A stretch of DNA of 63,997 nt, the filler included, from Perkinsus olseni (taxonomy: Eukaryota), in the NCBI GenBank assembly GCA_013115125.1. It is 5 parts of 5 records of this genome, joined end to end, with 100 filler letters (N's around TTAATTAATTAA, not from the genome) between each part and the next. Parts side by side here need not be neighbours in the genome. Positions count along the whole stretch, not along the records: positions 41,440 to 55,133 come from JABANN010000749.1; 4 more parts are not named here. One strand, 5' to 3'. The translations under genes and the position numbers were made by a program. Below the pieces are notes generated by a model, which made no database searches, had not been told where the DNA came from, and saw only the letters and a program-made list of their open reading frames with translations. This document shows positions 400 through 55,233 of the stretch, one piece after another; position 1 is the stretch's first letter; every line of letters begins with the position of its first letter.

Positions 400-2750
400 G
401 CCACTCAGTGGATTTATCGATCATAGCTACGGTGTCCGCAAGTACAATTCTGTTGGTTGGTGTATGGGGTTCCCAATGCTGGCAGTGACAGAGCTAAGGG
501 CTGAGAATGGTATCCTTGGTGCTGTCGCCCTTACATTGCGATGTTCTACCATAGTGGCGGCACCATCATCTCTGCGGTCTACACAGTTGCACGCATACGT
601 TGAGGATTTCGCCGCCCTTGTTCGCCTTCGTGTTGCAATCGGATGAGCATGGGACAGCAAGTGTTTCAAATAAACTTGCTGCCTGGAATTGAACCAGGGT
701 GCTTCGCTTCCAAAGCAGGTGCTCTAACCGACTAATCAATTCAGCCGCAATCTGCTTCACTGGAACTTGGAGTGCCGCCCCTGACCTTCCACGGCACATT
801 AATAATGATATAATTATGGGAACCAGAGTCTCTAAATTGAAATAACGATCTCGTAATTAAACTCTCTTATTTTGTCGGGGAAGGTGAAGGAGCGAAGAGT
901 TCATTTTTCGGGTGATGTGCCCGAATGGTTGATCGCGGGTGTCGATTGAAGCTTTCCTTACACATCGTGCTGTCCATGGTACAATCGTGGAGCAGAGGAA
1001 TGTGAGGAATGAAATCTCGGCCGCCTTGGCCAGAAATATAAGGAAGTTTAGTGAGTTCAGACGGCGGTAGACAAGTCCTCCGATTGAAACTGTCCTTAAT
1101 AACGAGCAATACATGACTTAATTATCACGTCTTCCTGCTCTTAGGTTTCGACCGACTTCTTCTGCGTCTTCCTCCATCCTCGCGGTCCGCTGGGTCACAA
1201 AAGAGCACTTGAACCTCAAAAAGATGGATTCGCTCCACAATCGTGAAGTTTCTCAGCACGAAGAGCTGCCACTCCGATAATACACAATTTTGGTCTTCAA
1301 AAACTCTTCCGAATGCCGGCCGCTGCGGTCTCCTTAGCGTTAAGTCCTATGATGAATGGCGCCACTGACACCGTGCCAGCGCCTCTCCTTTCGTGAAGAC
1401 GCTCTTTAACGTGTTGACCACAGCGCCTCTGTAATCTTCTTTTTCAGAGTTCTACTAGCGCCAGGGGCAGCGGCAGCACCGCCCTAGGTCGTAGATACTT
1501 CTGCGCTGCCTTTTTAGAATTGGACTCGTGGGCGTGCAAGTCGGCAGGTGCTATTTTGAAAAAGCTTGGTGGTGTGTTGCTTTGAGAATTGGGCGGTCTC
1601 CATCCAGTGGGGATCGTAGTTCGATCCCCGGCCATTGTTTCTCGAATTTTGCATTCGTCCAGATCCCTCCAGTGCTTCGTGACTCCATCGTATGGGATTG
1701 AGTTTGGGAGATCCCGAGTTCAATTCTCGCTGGTAACATCTCTATAGCCGCGGAATAAGAGGCTCGTCTTTTCCGAAGCTGTGAGTGAGACTTCTCAGTT
1801 TAACAAACTCGACACGCTGTCTCTCCCACACTGTAACTGAGAAGTATTCGAGTAAGAGTGTACGGGTCGGAGCTGTTGATTACGACCGGGGGCGCTGTTG
1901 TTGTTCAGGATTTAACGAGTGTTGTATATTATTTTCTTGCTCCATGTCCGCATATCAAACAACAGGAGCCCAGTACAGTTCCAAGCAGGATGAGGCGCAA
2001 GGTGATACAAACGGGAAGATGGGGCTGTCTAGCTCGGAAATTTCGCGGAAATTTTGTCACTGCGAGTTTTGAGGAATGCAGCTCGCCGTTGGCTTGTTCG
2101 AAATAAATGCCGACTTTCGTTGAATTTTTCATCTGTTTATTGCAAGCATCGGGCGAAGATAATTCTTCTTGTGCTTTTTGTCTTTCTCGGAGTGTACTGT
2201 ACGCGTCGCGCCGCCTCGTCGGTCTCTTCAACGAGATGAGCGCTTAAAACGAGCTCGTCGTCCTGAAGTGAGGACGACGAGCCACCTCATGCTTCATCGT
2301 GCTCGTGGCTCGAGGACGTTCCATCTCATGTTCAGTCTGAGTTACATGTGAAACATTTGACGGTAACATGAGCTACCTCATTTCACCTGACTTGACCTTC
2401 TTATTTCATCTCGACGGCTTCCTGAAGGCGATTGTTCCAACCTCAACCATACTGAATGATGTGAAGTTGGCAGCGCCGCTGGAGTATGCACTCGCGGCTC
2501 ATCTGTTGTTACAGGTCGAGCAGCTTAGGGTACACCTAACAGTGAGGTGGATGAACTCGAAAAAACCGCGAGTGTATTGAACTGAAGGCTTTAAGGATGG
2601 ACCCACCTAGTGGCCCGAAATGAAATCGTCGAGCTGGAACAAGTGGTTGTTGCTGTTCAGCCCAGGGGAGGGGTCCTGCCCGGGCTTGATAAATCGGCTC
2701 GAGCAGTGGATACGTGAGAAACGATCTAGTCCCTCGACGCTCCACTGCGA
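400..2750 (-). mobile_element. Highly degenerate non-LTR (LINE-like) RT/RNase H remnant
   Basis: Broken minus-strand motifs occur in LINE order: KPGQDP-like (~2680), GTVLG (~1965), KYL (~1495) and a possible RNase H-like segment (~620-660). Many stops and frameshifts; boundaries approximate. Confidence 0.3.
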
Positions 2751-13729: not shown

Positions 13730-13829
13730 NNNNNNNNNNNNNNNNNNNNNNNNNNNNNNNNNNNNNNNNNNNNTTAATTAATTAANNNNNNNNNNNNNNN
13801 NNNNNNNNNNNNNNNNNNNNNNNNNNNNN
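13730..13829. other. Artificial contig linker
   Basis: N-run + TTAATTAATTAA (stop codons in all six frames) + N-run, 100 bp in total. Confidence 0.98.
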
Positions 13830-14242
13830 CCACCAGAGCTGCGAGCACGGGCGTGTATGTCGCTCTTCTTGCCAGTGGCTCTACACTAGTACCACTGTCA
13901 TTGAGCGAGGCGGATAAACTCGATCTAGCTACGAATAGCTGCACTTTATACTCTGGGCGGGACTTGAACCCGCAACCTTTGGAATAGAAGTCCAACGCTC
14001 TATCCGATTGAGCCACCAGAGCTGTTTAGATTACCTTGTATATTCCTTTCTGTGCGAATGGCTCTCAACACTACTACCACATGGCATGTGGCGAGGCGGA
14101 TGAACTTGGCTACAGCTACGAATAGCTGCATCTCCTGCTCTGGGCGGGACTCGACATTACCGTGCGTGTAGCGCCGCGTTTTACCTCGATCAAGCAACGA
14201 TAGTTACATCTGTTACTCTGGTCAGGACTTGATGCCGCGACT
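13830..14242 (-). repeat. Edge of a tandem tRNA-Arg(TCT) array (~185-bp unit) with decaying copies
   Basis: tRNA 5' end at 13830-13839, a full tRNA at 13949-14022, and 3'-end fragments at ~14137-14155 and 14214-14242. The two spacers are homologous. Confidence 0.8.
13949..14022 (-). tRNA. tRNA-Arg (anticodon TCT)
   Basis: GCTCTGG TG GCTC AATCGGATA GAGC G TTGGA CT-TCT-AT TCCAA AGGTT GCGGG TTCAAGT CCCGC CCAGAGT A; all four stems pair. Confidence 0.95.
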
Positions 14243-14407
14243 AGAAAAAAAAGACAGCTTCAGGACTCAATGATATAAGCCACAGCCGTCGCGACGATGA
14301 TATAAGCCACAGCCGTCGCGAGGGGTCGAGCCGCGCTTGCCAGGGGGGGGCCTTCAGACGGGACACCAACCGGTCCCTGTGATCGCCTCACGTAACCATC
14401 TGCTCAG

Positions 14408-27542: not shown

Positions 27543-27642
27543 NNNNNNNNNNNNNNNNNNNNNNNNNNNNNNNNNNNNNNNNNNNNTTAATTAATTAANN
27601 NNNNNNNNNNNNNNNNNNNNNNNNNNNNNNNNNNNNNNNNNN
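27543..27642. other. Artificial contig linker
   Basis: N-run + TTAATTAATTAA + N-run. Confidence 0.98.
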
Positions 27643-41339: not shown

Positions 41340-41439
41340 NNNNNNNNNNNNNNNNNNNNNNNNNNNNNNNNNNNNNNNNNNNNTTAATTAATTAANNNNN
41401 NNNNNNNNNNNNNNNNNNNNNNNNNNNNNNNNNNNNNNN
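41340..41439. other. Artificial contig linker
   Basis: N-run + TTAATTAATTAA + N-run. Confidence 0.98.
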
Positions 41440-42078: not shown

Positions 42079-43589
42079 ATGGCTGACGTCTCTTTCGGCG
42101 TTGGTATTCTCTGTACCCTTCTCGCCGCCTTTTTCTACGGTATCCAATACGTGCCCTGTAAACAATACACCACCTTCGACGGTGCCGTCTTCCAATGGTT
42201 CATGTGCAGCGGTATTCTCTGGGGCGGCATCGTTCTTCAACTCATCCTGATGCTCGCTTTCGACTGGCCCGGTCCGCAGGTCATCCTCTACGGCGTCCTC
42301 TCCGGCATGCTCTGGGGCTCGGCGAATTTCCTGGTAATTCCTCTGGTCAGGATCTGCGGGCTGGCCTTGGGCTTTTCCCTATACCACATCATCAACTTAT
42401 CCTGGGGGTACTGTCTCAGTCGTTTCGGCCTCTTCGGGATGGACCAAGACGTCGGTCGGATACCCGTCCTTAGAGACGTTGGTGTCTTCGTGCTCCTAGC
42501 CTCCTTCGTTATGCTGTTCTGGGTTGAACCAGAGGAGGCGAAGGCCACCACCGCTCCCCTGAAGACCAAAGAAAGACCGTCGCAGAGCGTTCGTCACAAG
42601 GCTACGGCGCCGACCCAGTCCGATGAAACCTCTCCCATGGGCCAGGAGAATGATGACGACGTTGAAGTCGTTAAGAGCCCAACAGCAGGACAGCCGTCGA
42701 GGAAATATCTCTTTGGTCTGAGTCGCGTGCACGCCATTAAACTAGCAGGTAAATCGCCACTTAAATCTCTCCATTCCTCATTGCCGGGTCATTCAGGTAT
42801 CGCCTTAGCCATCGCCGCGGGAGTGCTGACTGCCATGAATGGATGGCCGTATGCTCTGTGGGCTCAGACCCAACAAGGGAAGGACATGATGGCGGTAGTA
42901 CACGGGAAGAGGTTGGGGGGCGCGGATACCAAATTTTGGAACTCTAATCGTTACTTCTAATTTCGCTTGTTAACTCGAACCGAAATTCTACCCTCGCGAT
43001 TCTAATCGTTCCAAATACCAAATTTCGCCCGAATCATTTGCATCTCGAATTAGCACTGTTCGCGCTATCTACACCCATTGCCACCATATTCTGTTCACCA
43101 GTGACCCCACGTCATGCGTCTCTGCAGGTGCAATTTGTATTCTCCCAAACCATTGGTATCTACGCCGTCTCCAGTATCTGGTACTGGCTCTCATCGACCA
43201 TCCGACAATTCGCTTTTAAAAAGCGTACCAATCACTCAGTTATTCGTCCAGCCTTCATTGCCGGTAGTGCCGTCTGTGGGATAGAACCTCTGCGGGATGT
43301 GATACAGCGGGTTTCAGGTCTCTTCTGGGTCATCGGTGATGTCAACATGCTTTACGGAATCGATGGTATCGGCTACGCGGCAGCTTACACTTTAGACGCT
43401 GTCGGACCGGTCATGGTCGCTAGTGTCCTCAGCCTTTTGTGGTTCAAGGAGATCAAGGAAACAAGGTGAATAAAATACCGTCGCCGGGGTTCGAACCAGA
43501 GACCTCTATTTCTCAGGCAGCGTCTATGGTTCACCGGTTCATTCGTCACTCAAGTCGCAGGTTGTATAATGGTAGCCGTAGGCGCCTAA
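42079..43589 (+). CDS. TMEM144: TMEM144-like (DMT superfamily) membrane protein, 5 exons
   Basis: FYGIQYVPCKQYTTFDGAVFQWFMCSGI, GMLWGSAN..GLALG..W..SRFGLFG and GPVMVASVLSLLWFKEIK match the TMEM144 pattern. Introns include 43264-43317 and 43466-43516. Confidence 0.85.
43268..43292 (-). pseudogene. tRNA 3'-end fragment (Lys-like) at the 5' end of TMEM144 intron 3
   Basis: Minus strand GGTTCTATCCCACAGACGGCA resembles a T-loop plus the CCCAC AGACGGC-N end of tRNA-Lys(TTT). Confidence 0.5.
43472..43507 (-). pseudogene. tRNA 3' half with T4 terminator inside TMEM144 intron 4
   Basis: AGAGGTC TCTGG TTCGAAC CCCGG CGACGGT A TTTT. Confidence 0.75.
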
Positions 43590-43957
43590 GAGTGCATCTA
43601 CTGCACCCAATACATTTTCCAGTCGAGTATCATTTAACAAAGGTGTGGTATGAAAAAATCCACACGCCTGCGCAGAAAATCATCCTAGGTATCTTGTAGA
43701 CTTGTAGTAGTAAAATATCTTTATTCCGTCAGTGTCACCCAGAGAAGCTTTCGCTGCCGTCCCGAATCCTTCGACGATTGCTCCTCTGACGTCTTGTGTT
43801 ACGCTATTTATCGACTACCAGCCAGCTTTGTTGTCCCCCTCCTACGAGGAGAAGACCACACGACTTTGCGGCTGTTTACGTTTTCCGACTCTTCGGTGGT
43901 TGGGTTGACGATCGCTGTTAATGGACTGCAAGAAGGAGAGAATAGCTTTTCATTAGC

Positions 43958-45151
43958 ATGTCGGACGGCGTGGAGGAGGACAGGGAGATCACACGCGATA
44001 TCTACGCCCTTTTAGCGGACAGCAGGGCCGAGCTATTCGATGACACAGTCGAAAGGTGAGCTCCTAATGGGTTCGAGTGACTGTAACAATGACTCTCTAA
44101 CTCGTGGAAGTAGCTGAGCTATGGAGACATAAGGGAGCAACTGTAGAGGAGAGTTAGGGCACCCAGCGTAGGGCGACGACCAACAGCGATTAGCTACGGA
44201 TCCTATGCTGCACATAAATGTCCGCATAATACCGTAACAAACTCCCTCTCTCGGTGCAATCAGTTCTCGGAGCGATCGTCTCGTCGGTGGTCAGTCGTCT
44301 CTCCGCCGCTCTGGCCCGTCTGCTGGCGAGGTTGCGTCAGAACAGCGGTGATCAGTGGATCGGGAATCGAATTGTAAAGGAGGTCCTGCTAGAAAATGGT
44401 AGGTCCTGGGATTCGAACCTGCGTCCAATATCCTCGACCATCAGGTACCGATCTCTTAATTAGAGTCATGAAGCGCTTCCCGGACCTCGCTGAACTGGCT
44501 GGCGAATGCATCGCCGCGGCAACCTCAGAAAATGTCATCTGCGGTTCCGGGGCGCCAACAACCGTCACTTTCGGCACTCCACCTCACGACGTTCAATTTC
44601 ACATGCAAACCGCCGACTACTACGGCGCTGGTCTCGGCTATAAAATATGGCCCGCCGCGATCGCGCTGGCCCGAGCAATCTATCAACATGATGTATCCCT
44701 CGGAGACCATCCGAAGGTTGTAGAGATCGGTGCAGGAGTCGGGCTAGCGGGCATTGCTGCGGCTAAATTCGGCGAAGCTTCTTCCGTCTGCTTCACGGAC
44801 AGGATGGCCGGGTCGTTGGAAGTCGCCATGAGAAACGCCAAGAGGAACTGCCTCAGCGGCAGATTTAGTAGTAAAGTCGTGGACTGGCGTGACGCTGATG
44901 GCCTGCCTGATGACGCTGATGTGATGCTCGGCGCGGATGTCATTTACGAGGAGGCACACGCCGAGCTGATCATGCAGCTGTTGAGGAACTTCCACGGCAA
45001 GAAGGCAGTACTAGCACTCATGCCACAGAGGCCAGGGTATAGGGAATTCATCTCGAAATTGAGGAATCTCAAGAGTGTGCAAGTTGCCAAGATGTCCGTG
45101 TCTACTCCGATAGGAGAATGTTCAATATTGGAGATCTCGGTGATTGACTGA
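43958..45151 (+). CDS. SAM-dependent methyltransferase, Methyltransf_16/METTL21-like; 5' exons tentative
   Basis: GYKIWPAAIALA, VVEIGAGVGLAGI, FTD, VDW and LGADVIY motifs. The intron 44399-44444 joins ..EVLLENG to TDLLIRVMK in frame. Confidence 0.85.
44399..44427 (-). pseudogene. tRNA 3'-end-like fragment at the 5' end of the methyltransferase intron
   Basis: Minus strand GGACGCAGG TTCGAAT CCCAGGACCTAC has a perfect B-box GGTTCGAATCC. Confidence 0.55.
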
Positions 45152-47131: not shown

Positions 47132-48103
47132 TAGACAATGCAAAACTGCCAACCACCGCCGACGCGTTGCGATGATTCCCGCAAACTTCAAAGCATCCTT
47201 CTCTCGACAACCCACGACGAGCTCATGTGATGCCAGAGGTGACCGCTGTCCGGGGCTCCTCTACCCTCTGCCTCATCGTCATCACCTCGTCGCCTTCGAT
47301 AGAATGCCGACGCTTCCTGCGAATACCAAATCTTCACCGCCACTCGAATGGCACCTACATGCTCATCCGCCTTGCCGCGCTACAAAGAGCCGCAGCCGAC
47401 ACGCAGAGGTCGCCGTCGAGCGAGTCGGAGTCTAGGTCCGCACACCACACTAGCCGACGGGGTAGACGATAGCCTGAAGCGTTCGATGAAGGGTTACTCT
47501 GGAGACGAATACTCACCATGAGGAGTACAGAATGGCTCCGGTCCGAGAGTGAGGTGCCCCTTCCTCGGGAAACACTCCCTGAGCGATCGCTCGGAGTTGC
47601 AGCGCCTGATCGAGGCAGTAGGGATCGTCAAGGGGACGACATGGGTCTTCCTATCCGACCTCAACCGTCTCGAGGAGGTGGTGTCCGATGACAAGCTTGA
47701 AAGGCGGCCTGAGGTTTGGGAAATACGGCTGGCCCGTCGCTGTTGATGGACCGACGGAAAATTCCGAGAGGAGTCCGTCCTCTCTGCAGAATAGTCGGAG
47801 TCTCCTTCAGCTCTTCTCGCCGCGCTATGCGCTGCTCGAAATCTTCAACTAGATGACGGAAGTGAACAGCGTCGGAGGACAAGACATGCTGTTTAACCAT
47901 AAAGAGGAAACTATCGGTGAAGAATCAACGAGATTGTACCTCCTGTAGCGTTCGAACCGGCGACCTGTCGCATCTAGGACGAACACCATGTCCAGCTGAG
48001 CCACGCCGCTCACGGCACACACTGAAAACCTCCCAATGAAGCGACGGCCATTGACAAAATCGGAGCATCCCTCTTCATAGAAAAGGAGTAACATAACCAC
48101 CAA

Positions 48104-50049
48104 TCACTGAATTCTCTCGATGACCACACTCGTCGCCCCTCCTCCGCCATTACATATTGTCGCACAACCGACACTGTAATCATTCTCACCCAAAATTCTC
48201 GTCAAAGTCCCCACCAGACGGGCTCCTGAGGCTCCAATGGGGTGCCCGAGAGCCACCGCCCCTCCGTCCACGTTAACCCTCGACGGATCTAGGTCCAATA
48301 ATTTCATATTGGCGATGGCCACCGACGAGAAGGCCTCGTTAATCTCCCAGACGTCAACGTCCCTGAAAACAACAAGGCGTCTAAACTGAGATAATCGCAA
48401 CTAGTTTACAAGTGAGACCATCCTGTTTGGAAAAACATCTCTTCACAACGGAAACCAACTCAAGCAAGACCGCCAGCTCTCCACTGTGGAGGACGCATGC
48501 ATGCCGCCCCCGCCGCCGCCGCCGCCGCGCGGATGAGGCGGAATGGCTCCCCCATGATGCTCACTTCGGCGTCATCCCTGCCTTCTGCAGTGCCACCCTC
48601 GCTGCCCCGGCCGGTGAGATCGAATAATCTATGGGGTCCTGCTCGAAATCTGCCCAGGAGATGATCCTGATCAGCCAGGCCACTTCAACAATCGATCAGC
48701 CGGGCGGGCGCTTCTATCACCGAGCCAGCGGGGTCAAGCCTTGTTCCCGAGAGAATTCCTCACTGACGACGACGAGTGCCGCTGCACCATCGTTGAGCTT
48801 GGAGGCGTTGGCGGCAGTAATGGTGCCATCTTTGATGAAGGCTGGTCGGACCGCTGCCACCCGCTCGATCTTCAAGTTCGTGAACCTGAATTCGACAAGT
48901 TGTTTCCAACAACCACGAGAGGTGAGACTCACTCCTCATCACTGTAAAAAATTTTAGGTTCGCCACCCTTGACTGTTGGGGGGACTTCAACTGGGAACGC
49001 CTAGGGAACGCTAACGCGTTGCGGATCTCGGGACGTGCGCAGCAACATTCGAGTTGGACTGGAAAGTGATGCACCGAACCTCCGAAACTTGCCTCATTCT
49101 TCATCTTTCCTTTACTCCACGCCGCGGCCGCCCTCTGATAGGACTGGATGGCGTAGTCATCCTAACGCACGAAGCAGCATTCAACTCGTAGCGGCGGGCC
49201 AAGACAGCACTTGCTCCTCTCGAGTAATGCCAAACTCTTTAACGGTCTTCTCAGCACACTTGCCCATGTGGATGTCGTTATAGACATCCCAGAGCCCATC
49301 TCTCAAGACTAGATCTACCAGCTGGCCATGGCCGTATCTAAAACACTCATCGCCCGATTAGTTCAGCTGGATAGAATGTCTGCCTACGGAGCAGATGGTC
49401 GTAGGTTCGAATCCTGCATCGGGTACTTACTTATACCCGCCACTCCTAGCCTCCGTCAATGCATGTGGCGTATTGCTCATCGACTCCATCCCTCCAGCAA
49501 CAATCTGCCATCATTCTATACCACCATCCACTGAGGAGTCACCTACCACATCGGCCTCCCCCACAGCGATGGAAGTAGCCGCGATAGAGACCGCCCTCAT
49601 ACCACTGCTGCACACTTTATTAACACTCATCACAATCGTGGACGAGGGAAGCTTGGCCGCCAAAGCTGCCTGACGTGCCGGGGCCTGACATAGATAGACA
49701 AACCGCAGTCGCACAGAACGAACCCACGACCACTGGCAGCGTAGGGGTGAAGATTAACCACTCGCCCATACTACCTGTCCACAAGCCGCTGAGAGTACAT
49801 GCCCCATGATAACCTGATCCACCTCTCCACCATCGACCTTCGCTTGAGCCAATGCTCGCGTGATGGCCTGAGGCGATCAAACATATCCCCTCAATCGCCT
49901 GTTAATGCTTTCCCAAAACCACCCACATGAGCTGCTAGTTGAGGCGCCTTGAACGACGACAACCTCCCCAAAAAAGAACCGATCGGAGTTCGAGCATAGC
50001 CGACTATCACCGCCGACCGAGGCAGGGAGAGGGGACGTATGATAGGCAT
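48104..50049 (-). CDS. Acetyl-CoA C-acetyltransferase (thiolase), multi-exon
   Basis: [73 protein letters not shown] and CNGGGG. Includes a GC-AG intron at 49001-49092. Confidence 0.95.
49352..49425 (+). tRNA. tRNA-Arg (anticodon ACG), antisense within a thiolase intron
   Basis: GCCCGAT TA GTTC AGCTGGATA GAAT G TCTGC CT-ACG-GA GCAGA TGGTC GTAGG TTCGAAT CCTGC ATCGGGT A; all stems pair. Confidence 0.95.
49704..49774 (-). pseudogene. Degenerate full-length tRNA (Ser-like) forming a thiolase intron
   Basis: GTAGTATGGGCGAGTGGTTAA...GGTCGTGGGTTCG..GCGACTGCG retains an A-box, a partial B-box and GTAGT/ACTGC acceptor pairing. The anticodon arm has decayed. Confidence 0.55.
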
Positions 50050-50579
50050 GAAAAATGAAGCCCCCAGCCACTAGACCCGCGCAAGTTCGATCCCCAGGTC
50101 CGCAACCCAACGCCATTGACCAGCATTAAGCCGCTGACACGCATCTGCCCGAACGACCTCCACAACTAACCAGCCTGCTTGCACAGAATTGACGGTATTC
50201 AACCACAGGAAGAGGCGCTTGCAGCGGCGGAGGCGGCAATATCCCCACTAACAGTAGGAGTATGATAAATGTGATAATAATTGAGCAATGACAACGTGAT
50301 TTTGAGAAGTGCTATTATTACTACCGATAGAGCATCAATCAACATCAACAACGGTATGGCATCAACCGCTATTACAGGTTTACTGACATCACCACCTTCA
50401 TTAGAGATGCATCAAGGAGATACAAAATGGTAATTCGCAATGACGACGACCATCGTGCACAGCCGGATGAATAGGTAGAAGAACAAACTCAGAAATTATT
50501 GATAAGTATCTAAGGTGGAACCACGAAAGATACAGAACAGCTCAAGACTGGAATGCAGTATTCGTAGAGCCTGGCTTAC

Positions 50580-51590
50580 TCATTGCACTGTTCCTTCAAC
50601 TGTCGGTGTTCGCCCTTCAGGAGGGAACGGGGCGAAGGGTATCGGCAAGGCTTCTTCCTCCAGCACTGGCGCCTACGCAGGAACAGCACCCCAACCTGAT
50701 GGCACCGCAGAGTATCCAAACCCGGGCATACGTTAGGCATGGATCCTCCTCCTCCGGTCGGCCCTCCACCAGCCCCAGCGCTCATCATCGGAGTTGATAG
50801 TTCCCTTTGACGTGCCGTAGAATTGAAGAGCGAGAACCCCTTATACTGAGAGCCAGCTCTCCCGCCTCAACGCTATGCCCTCCCTATCCTAACCTTAATA
50901 GCGTAGTAGAGTGTGAGTGCTCCTGTAGATATCATAAACATGCCCGACAGGACACAGAAGAACGACCAGAACCTGACCAGGAGTGGGTCGGAGCGATCGC
51001 AGACTCCCTAACGGCCTACCCAGAGTTGACCTTGACTCCGTCGTCTTCTCCCAGTAACGCCATCAGCATCCTGGCCTCGCCCTCTTCACGACTGCCCTCT
51101 GTTACCGATCGAACCGACTTGTACGTATAATTGCCACTACACAGCATTCCTATTACCTGAAAAAGGGGGGAAACCTTTAGCGGAGCGAAGCTCTTCGAAT
51201 GTTATTACTATGTAGAAGACAGCACGACCGATGAATGAAGTCATGAAGGGTAGAACAGCCCGTATAACTTTATGAGCCTTCGAGTCTCGGGGCCTGACAA
51301 CAAACGCTGACTCTCCATCCAAAGGTCCCCGGATCGATCCCTGCAGCCTGCATTTTCATACCACAACTCCGCAATCATCCCGGCAACACCCAAGCCACCA
51401 AACAAGGCAAGGTCAGCCAAATTACGTAATAACCTCCACAACGAATACTGAGGACAGAAAATGTACCTGAGAAAATACAAATACCCCTCCCGGGGTTCGA
51501 ACCCGGGACCTCCTACGATAACGAATGCACCACCATCAATAAGCATGAGCCGCTCCCACTGAGGCGAAGGATGTGCTCGATGCTAGCCAT
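50580..51590 (-). CDS. COPI-associated/TVP15-like small membrane protein, 6 exons
   Basis: Spliced MASIEHILRL..GMIAELW..VLPFMTSFIGRAVFYIVIGML matches the COPI-associated pattern (FxxxxxGRxxFY). Confidence 0.7.
51317..51356 (+). pseudogene. tRNA 3' half with T4, antisense in COPI-gene intron 2
   Basis: ATCCAAAGGTC CCCGG ATCGATC CCTGC AGCCTGC A TTTT. Confidence 0.6.
51482..51516 (-). pseudogene. tRNA 3' half forming COPI-gene intron 1 (sense)
   Basis: GTAGGAGGTC CCGGG TTCGAAC CCCGG GAGGGGT A followed by TTTGTATTTT; the T-arm is perfect. Confidence 0.8.
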
Positions 51591-51767
51591 AATTACAACA
51601 AACTCGATGAAAGCAGTAGAACATTTTCCCCTAAACGCAAGCCTCGGAGGAAACGATAAAATCACTCCATCGTTCTCTCCACTAATAACAAGCCCGCATA
51701 CGAAGGCTTTCGCAGAGGCCCGAAAATGACTGGTAAAAATCTGAAAGGACCGCTGATGCAATGATGG

Positions 51768-52645
51768 TCAGAGGAATCCTGACGCGCACCCGGAAGATTT
51801 TCTCCCTGGATGTCTGCGAATTGAATCTTTATACGTTTCTCCTTTGCAAAGTAGCCAACAATGGAGGCCGACGTTTGGGACCTGACAGGTTCGATCGTGA
51901 TGGCCTGGGTTGGATCTGCGATATGGCACTACTACCGCTGATACTATCCCGACGATGGATGCCAATACTAAGGCTAACGACGCCCAAGGGAGTCTCCGGC
52001 TGATGGCGAAAAACAAGTACCTGACACAACAAACCGTTCTCAAGCACCGTCCTCCAACCCGAAGGTCTCCGGATCGAATCCTTGCTGTGATATCTCGAAG
52101 CCTCCTTATTACACCACGACGATCCCTCCGGCAGCCGCTGTCCCGATCCACATTTGACACATCCGAGGCAATGCAGAGCGTGATAATAAAAACAATATGA
52201 TACTGACCGCGACAGCACAACAGACCTGAGACAACCATCACTACCACCGACGTCACTCCCCACCAACCACTATCCATGCAACCGGTATGGGAACTATCGT
52301 CCTCCCTCGGTCATCATCAGTAGCGAAGGCCACGCAGGCACAGACCCCCACTCCTACGCTGAGGAGCATGTAAATGCTGCATACCACAACAAACAGTATC
52401 TGATGGCAGAGCAGATGGTCTCGGATCTATCACCCACCGTCTTACGAAGGCTCGTCTGTTCCGCAGTCCGATGCAGTTGTTCACCACCGCACAGTGATGA
52501 TCGAACTCTCGAATACAGTAGCCGCACTCGGAGCCTGTCTTGAAGGAGCCTCAGGGGTAGGACGAGGAGAGAGTACCCTTACAGTGACTCCATCCATCCA
52601 GGCGATAAATCTTGCAAGTGCTGCAGAAACGGACGTCATGACCAT
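51768..52645 (-). CDS. Hypothetical multi-pass membrane protein, multi-exon
   Basis: Splicing 52021-52112 gives [53 protein letters not shown]. The start is tentative. Confidence 0.55.
52056..52092 (+). pseudogene. Initiator tRNA-Met-like 3' half, antisense in an intron
   Basis: AACCCGAAGGTC TCCGG ATCGAAT CCTTG CTGTGAT A has the GGATCGAA T-loop and TGATA end typical of eukaryotic initiator tRNAs. Confidence 0.7.
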
Positions 52646-55133: not shown

Positions 55134-55233
55134 NNNNNNNNNNNNNNNNNNNNNNNNNNNNNNNNNNNNNNNNNNNNTTAATTAATTAANNNNNNNNNNN
55201 NNNNNNNNNNNNNNNNNNNNNNNNNNNNNNNNN
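55134..55233. other. Artificial contig linker
   Basis: N-run + TTAATTAATTAA + N-run. Confidence 0.98.

What the first reader, a model, noticed from the sequence alone, without database searches (positions are those of the whole stretch)
49338..49430. A 93-nt thiolase intron that is essentially one intact antisense tRNA-Arg(ACG)
The intron reads GTAAG + reverse complement of the 74-nt tRNA + GATGAGTGTTTTAG. The last T of the GTAAGT donor is the complement of the tRNA discriminator A. Removing the intron restores [12 protein letters not shown]. The cloverleaf is perfect, but no TTTT terminator follows it, so Pol III would read antisense into thiolase exons, or the copy is a very recent insertion. 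This may be the youngest stage of the tRNA-to-intron series.
Basis: seen in the sequence. Interest (0 to 1): 0.88.

Follow-up and report, generated by a model that had tools for sequence, protein, structure and literature searches.

The report
Spliced intron made of antisense tRNA
In the mollusc parasite Perkinsus olseni, a 93-base intron of a thiolase gene is almost entirely an intact arginine tRNA gene on the opposite strand; RNA data show the intron is cleanly spliced out, but whether the tRNA created it is still open.

Summary
A high-scoring tRNA-Arg(ACG) gene (+ strand, 49352-49425; Rfam 61.8 bits against a cut-off of 29) fills 74 of the 93 bases of intron 4 (49430..49338, - strand, GTAAGT..TTTTAG, phase 2) of a 10-exon, 405-aa acetyl-CoA acetyltransferase. 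Transcript contigs from three runs in three studies skip exactly these 93 bases and the eight other introns. The one DNA run laid does not.

Exon 10 is 100% identical to an NCBI protein named Perkinsus olseni, so this is an alveolate, not a fungus.

The tRNA sequence has many copies in the genome. Summed contig depth over it is about 240 times the single-copy level. Some other copies share the 3-5 bases just upstream and 4 bases of trailer.

The missing TTTT terminator tells us little. The window's other tRNA and four other Arg(ACG) copies lack one too.

The 19 non-tRNA bases are too few to be an intron. I therefore favour intron birth by insertion of a tRNA gene (about 0.45) over an old intron remodelled around a nested tRNA (about 0.3). 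The deciding comparison with other Perkinsus genomes could not be run here.

The proposed "tRNA-to-intron series" rests on weak relics. This is a new variant of a known kind, nested intronic tRNA genes.

The parts
49338..49430 (-). Intron 4 of the thiolase gene: 93 bases, GTAAGT..TTTTAG, phase 2
   Evidence: Skipped exactly (both = 0) in contigs of X11, X8 and X13, and not in DNA run X2. Its removal gives an open 405-aa frame.
49352..49425 (+). tRNA-Arg(ACG) gene, 74 bases including the discriminator A, antisense to the thiolase
   Evidence: ARAGORN. Rfam RF00005 at 61.8 bits against a cut-off of 29, full-length match with all pairs standard. The sense strand folds close to a cloverleaf, z -2.18.
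49386..49388 (+). Anticodon ACG
49359..49370 (+). A-box-like internal promoter stretch (tRNA positions 8-19)
   Evidence: Coordinates. The match to the A-box consensus is judged from recalled knowledge, not from a tool.
49404..49414 (+). B-box-like stretch GGTTCGAATCC in the T arm
   Evidence: Coordinates. The B-box consensus is recalled.
49425..49430 (-). 5' splice site GTAAGT. Five bases are tRNA trailer (complement of CTTAC); the sixth is the complement of the discriminator.
49338..49351 (-). 14-base 3' end of the intron (T-run and AG), which is also the 5' flank of the tRNA gene
   Evidence: Other family copies match the window down to 49347 or 49349, so they share the 5 or 3 bases next to the tRNA (loose ends).
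49357..49361 (-). CTAAT, the intron's only YTRAY branch-point-like motif. It is the complement of tRNA positions 6-10, and its branch A lies 20 bases from the intron end.
   Evidence: Weak: only 3 of the gene's 9 introns have a YTRAY motif within 4-34 bases of the 3' end.
49431..49504 (-). Thiolase exon 4
49211..49337 (-). Thiolase exon 5
48104..50049 (-). Whole acetyl-CoA acetyltransferase (ERG10-type thiolase) coding region: 10 exons, 9 introns (59, 90, 42, 93, 49, 92, 47, 54 and 202 bases)
   Evidence: Model. All 9 introns are skipped in RNA contigs. Thiolase_N and Thiolase_C hits on 6 of 6 exons scanned, two of them below the cut-off on their own. The 405-aa NCBI Perkinsus olseni protein P0002 is nearly identical.
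49685..49774 (-). Intron 2 (90 bases), with a 28-base stretch resembling this tRNA from anticodon loop to T arm, in sense orientation. Possible relic; not shown to be one.
   Evidence: Local score 27, reached by 1 of 20,000 shuffles and by 2 of 2,804 non-self 90-base windows of the window. No tRNA hit from Rfam at E up to 10.

Best explanation
What is shown. This is an ordinary, efficiently removed GT-AG spliceosomal intron whose body is one member of a highly amplified tRNA-Arg(ACG) gene family of Perkinsus olseni, lying on the opposite strand. On the thiolase strand the tRNA trailer supplies five of the six donor bases, and the tRNA's 5' flank supplies the T-run and the AG.

What is inferred about present function. 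The branch site most likely lies in the antisense tRNA, since little else is available. On the other strand the tRNA keeps an intact cloverleaf and internal A and B boxes. It can therefore be an independent Pol III gene that shares DNA with a Pol II gene running against it.

What is inferred about origin. The intron was most likely born when a tRNA gene copy, with about 14 bases of 5' flank and about 5 bases of trailer, was inserted into a Lys codon of a formerly continuous exon. The copy survived because, read backwards, it happened to offer usable splice signals at its very ends.
For: Shown:
- tRNA identity and integrity.
- Exact splicing in three RNA-type runs from three studies, with none in the DNA run laid.
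- An open 405-aa frame, colinear with the Pfam profile and with the annotated P. olseni protein.

Family size:
- Summed contig depth in DNA run X2 is 18,559.6 over 49328-49411 against 78.1 beside it. 57 contig pieces were laid, many carrying foreign flanks.

For birth by insertion:
- 74 of the 93 bases are tRNA. The remaining 19 are far below the shortest intron of this gene (42) and below the 39-base minimum reported for P. marinus (PMC3101222, passages).
- The intron's only YTRAY motif lies inside the tRNA.
- Other family copies match this locus beyond the tRNA: to 49347 in 3 of the 7 loose-end groups listed at the 5' end, to 49349 in 2 of 7, and to 49429 in one trailer. At least 83 of the 93 bases therefore look like family sequence rather than older intron sequence.
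Against: - No orthologous locus from another Perkinsus species could be fetched, so the age of the intron and of the tRNA in it is untested.
- An inserted piece that begins exactly with GT and ends exactly with AG, with no target-site duplication (both = 0), needs luck or a special mechanism.
- The junction peptide is identical in P. marinus. The coding sequence therefore gives no sign of a recent disturbance.
- Intron gain is rare in general, while tRNA genes nested in existing introns are common elsewhere (PMC5040776, PMC4999229).
- The shared flank bases are few. The X2 consensus flanks are mixtures (agreement 0.66-0.67).
- The branch-site argument is weak, because 6 of the gene's 9 introns have no YTRAY motif in a plausible place.
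- Pol III activity of this copy is not shown. No T-run terminator follows for 875 bases.
Confidence: 0.45

Rival explanations
1. An old intron remodelled around a nested tRNA. An ancestral short intron at this codon received a tRNA gene copy with its near flanks. Deletions then trimmed everything not needed by the tRNA or by the splice sites, leaving a minimal intron.
For: - Nested tRNA genes in introns are well documented. 16 of 167 predicted tRNAs of Pleurotus ostreatus lie in introns (PMC5040776, passages). In C. elegans many tRNA genes are intronic, in both orientations (PMC4999229, passages).
- Perkinsus introns are mostly under 100 bases (PMC3101222), which fits pressure towards short introns.
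- Exact GT and AG ends without a target-site duplication come for free under this model.
- The junction peptide is conserved between P. olseni and P. marinus.
Against: - At most about 10 of the 93 bases could be left from the old intron. Its own branch site would have had to be lost.
- The donor hexamer overlaps the tRNA by one base, which is the tightest packing possible.
- No relative with an intron at this site was seen, but none could be examined.
Confidence: 0.3
2. A copy of a mobile, intron-like unit. tRNA-bearing introns of this form would occur in many genes and spread as units, either by reverse splicing of an excised intron into another mRNA followed by reverse transcription and recombination, or as an introner-like element.
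For: - The unit has exact GT..AG ends and no target-site duplication, as expected for intron transposition.
- Three of the 7 listed 5' flanks of other copies contain an AAAAC stretch 10-20 bases upstream of the tRNA. Read backwards this gives a T-run near a possible acceptor.
- Introns 2, 4 and 6 of this gene are all 90-93 bases long while five others are 42-59.
Against: - No second example was seen. No genome is held for this window.
- The exact tRNA core gave 0 matches in metagenome contigs.
- The trailers of other copies shown do not carry the same donor sequence.
- The AAAAC stretch could equally be a Pol III upstream element.
- Rfam does not see a tRNA in intron 2.
Confidence: 0.1
3. A silent passenger. 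The tRNA sequence is intact by recent descent or gene conversion but is not transcribed by Pol III at this locus. It matters only as intron filler. This concerns present function and can hold together with any of the origin stories.
For: - No T-run terminator for 875 bases.
- Only 14 bases of non-coding DNA lie upstream of the tRNA.
- Pol II traffic from the expressed host gene runs against it.
- In C. elegans, intronic tRNA genes show lower Pol III occupancy than others (PMC4999229, passages).
Against: - Other tRNA genes seen here also lack T-runs, so the terminator argument does not single out this copy.
- The internal promoter boxes and all stems are intact.
- In the same C. elegans study, copies on the strand opposite the host had higher occupancy than same-strand copies.
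Confidence: 0.35
4. The gene model or the assembly is wrong: there is no intron, or the tRNA lies between two genes.
For: Logan contigs of the DNA run break inside the tRNA (pieces end at 49376 and start at 49400), as they do at any repeat.
Against: - One mRNA contig per RNA run bridges the junction, with 30 to 74 matching bases on the shorter side of the joint and no ambiguity. Those contigs also carry the neighbouring exons.
- The annotated 405-aa P. olseni protein and the P. marinus ortholog read straight across it.
- The Pfam profile is colinear across the junction.
Confidence: 0.02

Closest known systems
tRNA genes nested in introns of protein-coding genes (C. elegans, PMC4999229; Pleurotus ostreatus, PMC5040776)
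   Same: An independent Pol III-type tRNA gene lies inside an intron of a Pol II gene. Both orientations occur: 56% of intronic tRNAs are on the same strand as the host in C. elegans. In P. ostreatus 16 of 167 predicted tRNAs are in introns.
   Different: In those cases the tRNA is a small guest in a larger intron. Here the tRNA is 74 of 93 bases, its flanks are the splice sites, and the intron could not exist without it. The host is a perkinsid alveolate, for which my eight literature searches found no such report.
nimtRNAs, mitochondrial-derived tRNA look-alikes in human introns that enhance splicing (PMC7722341, abstract read)
   Same: A tRNA-shaped sequence inside an intron that can influence splicing of its host.
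   Different: nimtRNAs need their cloverleaf for the effect on splicing (abstract), which I take to mean that it folds in the pre-mRNA. Here the pre-mRNA carries the antisense strand, which does not fold better than shuffles (z -0.30). The origin is a nuclear multi-copy family, not mitochondrial DNA.
Antisense Pol III unit (MIR, a tRNA-derived SINE) in the first intron of mammalian Polr3e, acting by transcriptional interference (PMC5358760, search listing only)
   Same: A Pol III-type unit lies antisense inside an intron of an expressed Pol II gene. This is a possible model for cross-talk between the tRNA and the thiolase.
   Different: That unit sits in a long intron and was shown to be occupied by Pol III. 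Here occupancy is untested and the unit fills the whole intron.
Introners and transposon-derived introns of algae, fungi and dinoflagellate relatives (PMC11282704 and PMC7789003, search listings only)
   Same: The idea that a repeated genomic element creates a new intron on insertion, by carrying or completing splice signals.
   Different: Introners are families of near-identical introns, often with target-site duplications or terminal repeats. Here there is one example, no duplication at the ends, and the element is a functional-looking tRNA gene, not a transposon.
Amplified tRNA gene families of Perkinsus (noted with Dada transposons in P. marinus, PMC3706591, passages)
   Same: tRNA gene numbers unusually large for a parasitic protist. 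This fits the roughly 240-fold depth excess over this tRNA in the DNA run.
   Different: The paper describes transposons inserted into tRNA-Ile, Leu, Gly and Tyr genes, not tRNA genes inside introns. No Dada element is seen at this locus.

Membership tests
tRNA gene (Rfam RF00005) | Cloverleaf and sequence score above the family's gathering threshold | tested here: met
   61.8 bits against 29, full-length, with no non-standard pair marked. ARAGORN calls Arg(ACG).
tRNA gene (Rfam RF00005) | Internal Pol III promoter (A and B boxes) | tested here: met
   Stretches at 49359-49370 and 49404-49414 fit the consensus as I recall it. No tool scored them.
tRNA gene (Rfam RF00005) | Run of T as Pol III terminator shortly downstream | tested here: not met
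   First TTTT is 875 bases downstream, first TTT 191 bases. The same holds for the Arg(TCT) gene (none in 109 bases) and for the 4 trailers of other copies shown, so this feature may not define tRNA genes in this organism.
tRNA gene (Rfam RF00005) | Transcribed and processed into a mature tRNA from this locus | not testable with these tools
   Only assembled contigs were available. A LOTTE-seq data set for P. olseni exists (PMC9550989), but its tables are supplementary and closed.
U2-type GT-AG spliceosomal intron | GT..AG ends, with removal restoring the reading frame | tested here: met
   GTAAGT..TTTTAG. The frame is open after removal and colinear with the Thiolase_N profile.
U2-type GT-AG spliceosomal intron | Absent from mRNA, present in DNA | tested here: met
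   Skipped in 1 contig in each of X11, X8 and X13. Present with no joint in DNA run X2. Caveats: the RNA and DNA are not shown to come from one strain, and X8 and X13 are RNA by guess.
U2-type GT-AG spliceosomal intron | Branch site upstream of the acceptor | tested here: inconclusive
   One CTAAT with its branch A 20 bases from the end. However, only 3 of the gene's 9 introns have such a motif in range, so the local consensus is unknown.
Introner / transposon-derived intron | Many near-identical introns in unrelated genes | not testable with these tools
   No genome is held. Other tRNA copies exist, but their gene context is unseen.
Introner / transposon-derived intron | Target-site duplication or terminal repeats at the intron ends | tested here: not met
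   The joint has no ambiguity (both = 0). The only inverted repeat near the ends is the tRNA acceptor stem.
nimtRNA-type intronic splicing enhancer | tRNA-like cloverleaf formed by the pre-mRNA strand | tested here: not met
   The intron strand folds at -20.9 kcal/mol, z -0.30, with no cloverleaf in the minimum-energy structure.
tRNA-derived SINE | tRNA-related head followed by an unrelated body and a tail | tested here: not met
   The unit is a complete 74-base tRNA with 14- and 5-base flanks and nothing more.
Thiolase (Pfam PF00108 / PF02803), host gene | Thiolase_N and Thiolase_C domains in order | tested here: met
   Exons 1, 3, 4, 5 and 8 hit Thiolase_N at increasing profile positions. 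Exon 10 hits Thiolase_C at E 3.3e-32. The host protein is 94% identical to the P. marinus ortholog.

The most novel reading that the evidence does not exclude
In Perkinsus the massively amplified tRNA genes act as seeds of new spliceosomal introns. A tRNA gene copy dropped backwards into an exon brings enough signal (trailer as donor, 5' flank as T-run and acceptor, interior as branch region) to be spliced out at once. tRNA gene spread and intron gain would then be coupled, and decayed tRNA-like introns such as intron 2 of this gene would be older products of the same process.
Probability: 0.25. Interest if true: 0.8.

Novelty: new variant of a known kind. Interest (0 to 1): 0.5.

Why it matters
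How new spliceosomal introns arise is a long-standing question, and clear single-step cases are few. This is a verified, cleanly spliced intron that is almost nothing but an intact, multi-copy tRNA gene on the other strand.

If relatives lack an intron at this codon, it would be a concrete example of intron birth from a non-transposon gene copy, in a lineage near the base of the dinoflagellates. Several Perkinsus assemblies are public, so the test is cheap.

The locus is also a compact natural case of a Pol III gene and a Pol II gene sharing the same 93 bases head-on. In addition, the tRNA genes seen here lack the usual T-run terminator, which is itself worth checking genome-wide.

If relatives share the intron, this is simply an extreme but ordinary nested tRNA gene.

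Tried and rejected
1. Whole-genome search for other copies: no genome is held for this window.

2. Exact 39-base tRNA core against JGI metagenome contigs: 0 matches.

3. Thiolase protein P0002 against metagenome contigs, to find relatives with introns. 587 of 596 candidate stretches were confirmed and the best 80 kept. All 80 had contiguous matches at 46-58% identity with no introns, so they say nothing about intron position.

4. Translated tRNA frames against the protein database, to find gene models that read through tRNA copies. The antisense frame was too short (27 aa), and a longer reference held stops. The sense frame gave 8 ORFs from ENA metagenome contigs and none named Perkinsus.

5. 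Earlier notes of this scan: 3 look-ups, nothing on this genome or this theme.

6. The idea that the antisense tRNA folds and brings the splice sites together: the fold is no better than shuffles (z -0.30). Rejected.

7. The idea that CTAAT in the tRNA is the branch point: kept only as a possibility, because most introns of the gene lack such a motif.

8. Rfam at permissive settings on intron 2, on 43350-44550 and on 51200-51800: no tRNA hit at E up to 10. The "relics" rest on short sequence likeness only.

9. My first reading that the host is a fungus: rejected by the 100% match to a Perkinsus olseni protein.

10. A one-residue insertion near the junction relative to 10 homologs (alignment A1) looked like a possible scar of insertion. 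It is shared with P. marinus and lies in a variable loop, so it carries little weight.

11. Fourteen further runs hold 0.41-0.49 of the sampled words. That is about the exon share, but only three of them were laid, so I draw nothing from the rest.

12. Literature: eight searches found no paper describing an intron made of a tRNA gene, or tRNA-derived intron gain in Perkinsus. The library lacks most subscription journals. I did not see the P. olseni genome paper, which I only recall. Supplementary tables were closed, for example the tRNA list of PMC9550989.
Full report
**The sequence**

ARAGORN finds two tRNA genes in the window. One is tRNA-Arg(ACG) at 49352-49426 on the + strand. The Rfam tRNA model matches 49352-49425 over its full length at 61.8 bits (gathering score 29; E 1.1e-11 in a 12-kb search and 5.7e-11 for the whole window), with no non-standard pair marked. 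The sense strand folds close to a cloverleaf, z -2.18.

Read on the - strand, 49430..49338 is five bases, then the reverse complement of the 74-base tRNA, then 14 bases. It begins GTAAGT and ends TTTTAG.

**The host gene**

From the - strand reading frames I built a 10-exon model:
- exons 50049-49927, 49867-49775, 49684-49547, 49504-49431, 49337-49211, 49161-49093, 49000-48933, 48885-48721, 48666-48565 and 48362-48104;
- 1218 coding bases, giving 405 aa without a stop;
- introns of 59, 90, 42, 93, 49, 92, 47, 54 and 202 bases.

Six exons scanned alone all hit the thiolase families at increasing profile positions. Exon 4 falls at Thiolase_N 107-129 and exon 5 at 133-173, so nothing is missing across intron 4. 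The intron lies after the second base of a Lys codon.

**RNA evidence**

I laid four public runs on 47900-50400. In X11 (RNA on record), X8 and X13 (RNA by guess), which come from three studies, one contig each joins 49337 to 49431. The skip is 93 bases, with ends CT..AC on the + strand and no positional ambiguity. The same runs skip the other eight introns exactly as modelled, including a GC-AG intron (intron 6).

The DNA run X2 covers the whole stretch and shows no joint. Two caveats apply. These are assembled contigs, and the RNA and DNA runs are not shown to come from one strain. An intron-less allele in the RNA strains is therefore not formally excluded.

**Organism**

Exon 10 is 100% identical to a 405-aa NCBI protein named 'Perkinsus olseni' (P0002). 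That protein differs from my model at a handful of residues and reads straight across the junction.

The P. marinus ortholog (P0129) is 94% identical, with an identical junction region. So this is a perkinsid alveolate, a parasite of molluscs, and not a fungus as I first assumed. P. marinus introns are reported as 39-1622 bases, most under 100 (PMC3101222, passages).

**A large tRNA family**

In X2 the summed contig depth is 18,559.6 over 49328-49411, against 78.1 in the bins beside it. 57 contig pieces were laid, and the locus's own contigs break inside the tRNA, at 49376 and 49400. The tool warns that summed depth is not a copy number. It does show many near-identical copies.

The loose ends give flanks of other copies. 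Of the 7 groups listed at the tRNA 5' end:
- 3 match this locus down to 49347, sharing 5 upstream bases;
- 2 match down to 49349, sharing 3 bases;
- 2 stop at the tRNA itself.

One trailer matches to 49429, sharing 4 bases. Three of the 7 upstream strings contain AAAAC 10-20 bases from the tRNA, as this locus does. Six further loose ends were not shown. The X2 consensus strings are mixtures (agreement 0.66-0.67).

**The terminator argument**

On the + strand the first TTTT after the tRNA is at 50300 (875 bases away) and the first TTT at 49616.
- The Arg(TCT) gene at 13949-14022 (- strand) sits in a tandem array of full and partial copies and has no TTTT in the 109 bases before the next copy.
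- None of the four trailers of other Arg(ACG) copies shown has one in the 30 or fewer letters given.

The lack of a T-run is therefore no sign of recent arrival. How Pol III terminates in this organism is an open side question.

**How it works now**

Splicing is shown. For the signals:
- The donor is the best of the gene's nine (GTAAGT).
- The acceptor follows a T-run.
- The only YTRAY motif is CTAAT at 49361..49357, the complement of tRNA positions 6-10, with its branch A 20 bases from the intron end.

Only 3 of the 9 introns of this gene have such a motif in a plausible place, so I hold the branch-site assignment loosely.

The intron strand does not fold better than shuffles (z -0.30). A structure-assisted splicing model like that of human nimtRNAs (PMC7722341, abstract) is therefore not supported.

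On the other strand, the tRNA keeps intact stems and A- and B-box-like stretches (the consensus is recalled). It could be transcribed, but nothing here shows it.

**Origin**

Three facts favour birth of the intron by insertion of a tRNA gene copy:
- The 19 non-tRNA bases are far too few to have been an intron.
- At least 83 of the 93 bases match other family copies.
- The likely branch region is tRNA sequence.

Several facts weigh against it:
- The ends are exactly GT and AG, with no duplication.
- Intron gain is rare in general.
- Nested tRNA genes in existing introns are common elsewhere. In P. ostreatus 16 of 167 are in introns (PMC5040776). In C. elegans they occur in both orientations, with host-gene pairing conserved across species (PMC4999229).
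- I could not examine any orthologous locus.

My estimates are about 0.45 for insertion-born, 0.3 for an old intron trimmed around a guest tRNA, and 0.1 for a mobile tRNA-bearing intron. Whether the tRNA is active or silent is a separate question.

**The 'series'**

Intron 2 (90 bases) has a 28-base stretch like this tRNA from the anticodon loop to the T arm, in the sense orientation. Its local score of 27 was reached by 1 of 20,000 shuffles and by 2 of 2,804 non-self 90-base windows of the window. The other such window is at 44408-44467, a T-arm-like stretch at the 5' end of a + strand methyltransferase-like ORF.

The tRNA covariance model sees none of these. Introns 2, 4 and 6 are all 90-93 bases long while five others are 42-59. 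This is suggestive but far from a demonstrated series.

**What could not be done**

- No genome is held.
- Both metagenome scans were uninformative.
- The protein-database searches gave orthologs but no DNA.
- Eight literature searches found no description of such an intron or of tRNA-derived intron gain in Perkinsus. The library is limited and supplements were closed.

**Verdict**

This is an extreme variant of the known nested-tRNA arrangement. It has a real chance of being a clean case of intron birth, and the test needs only a comparison of public Perkinsus assemblies.

Noticed in passing
window 13830-14260, - strand: tRNA-Arg(TCT) (13949-14022; Rfam 72.3 bits) sits in a head-to-tail array. 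Two upstream fragments repeat its 3' part (14232-14214 and 14151-14138), the spacer sequence recurs, and a next copy starts at 13839 where the masked N block begins. No TTTT lies between copies.
   Followed up: partly
window 49685-49774, - strand (thiolase intron 2): A 28-base stretch resembles tRNA-Arg(ACG) from anticodon loop to T arm, in the sense orientation of the host gene. The score was reached by 1 of 20,000 shuffles. Rfam does not recognise it.
   Followed up: yes
window 44408-44467, - strand: A stretch like the 3' half of a tRNA (T arm, then an acceptor-like end finishing in CCA). It lies antisense at the 5' end of a + strand ORF (44393-45151) that looks like a SAM-dependent methyltransferase. 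The ORF stays open through it, so I cannot tell whether it is coding, untranslated or intronic.
   Followed up: partly
window 677-745, - strand: Weak tRNA-like match (Rfam 21.7 bits, below the cut-off of 29; E 6.3). ARAGORN does not call it. Possibly a decayed tRNA.
   Followed up: no
window 49001-49092, - strand (thiolase intron 6): A GC-AG intron (GCAAGT..CCCTAG), skipped in the RNA contigs of all three RNA-type runs.
   Followed up: yes
thiolase introns, window 48363-49926: Intron lengths fall into two groups: 90, 93 and 92 bases (introns 2, 4, 6) against 42-59 bases (five others), plus one of 202. Six of the nine introns have no YTRAY branch-like motif in a plausible place.
   Followed up: partly
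protein P0002 residues about 139-146; alignment A1: Both Perkinsus thiolases carry one extra residue within three residues of the intron-4 site, compared with 10 homologs from other organisms.
   Followed up: partly
window 13730-13829, 27543-27642, 41340-41439, 55134-55233: Eight blocks of 44 N in four pairs spaced about 13.8 kb apart. They look like masking, not assembly gaps.
   Followed up: no
proteins P0121-P0128 (ENA metagenome ORFs): Spurious ORFs that translate a very similar tRNA-Arg core. One holds two tandem copies about 84 residues apart, and another also holds translated pieces of other tRNAs. Similar tRNA-Arg genes therefore stand in arrays in other, unidentified organisms.
   Followed up: no
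thiolase homolog list: Outside Perkinsus the best matches are only about 60% identical. The named ones mix an apicomplexan (Cardiosporidium, 56%) with Bacteroidota (Fulvivirga, Marivirga and Roseivirga, 54-56%). The origin of this thiolase was not examined.
   Followed up: no
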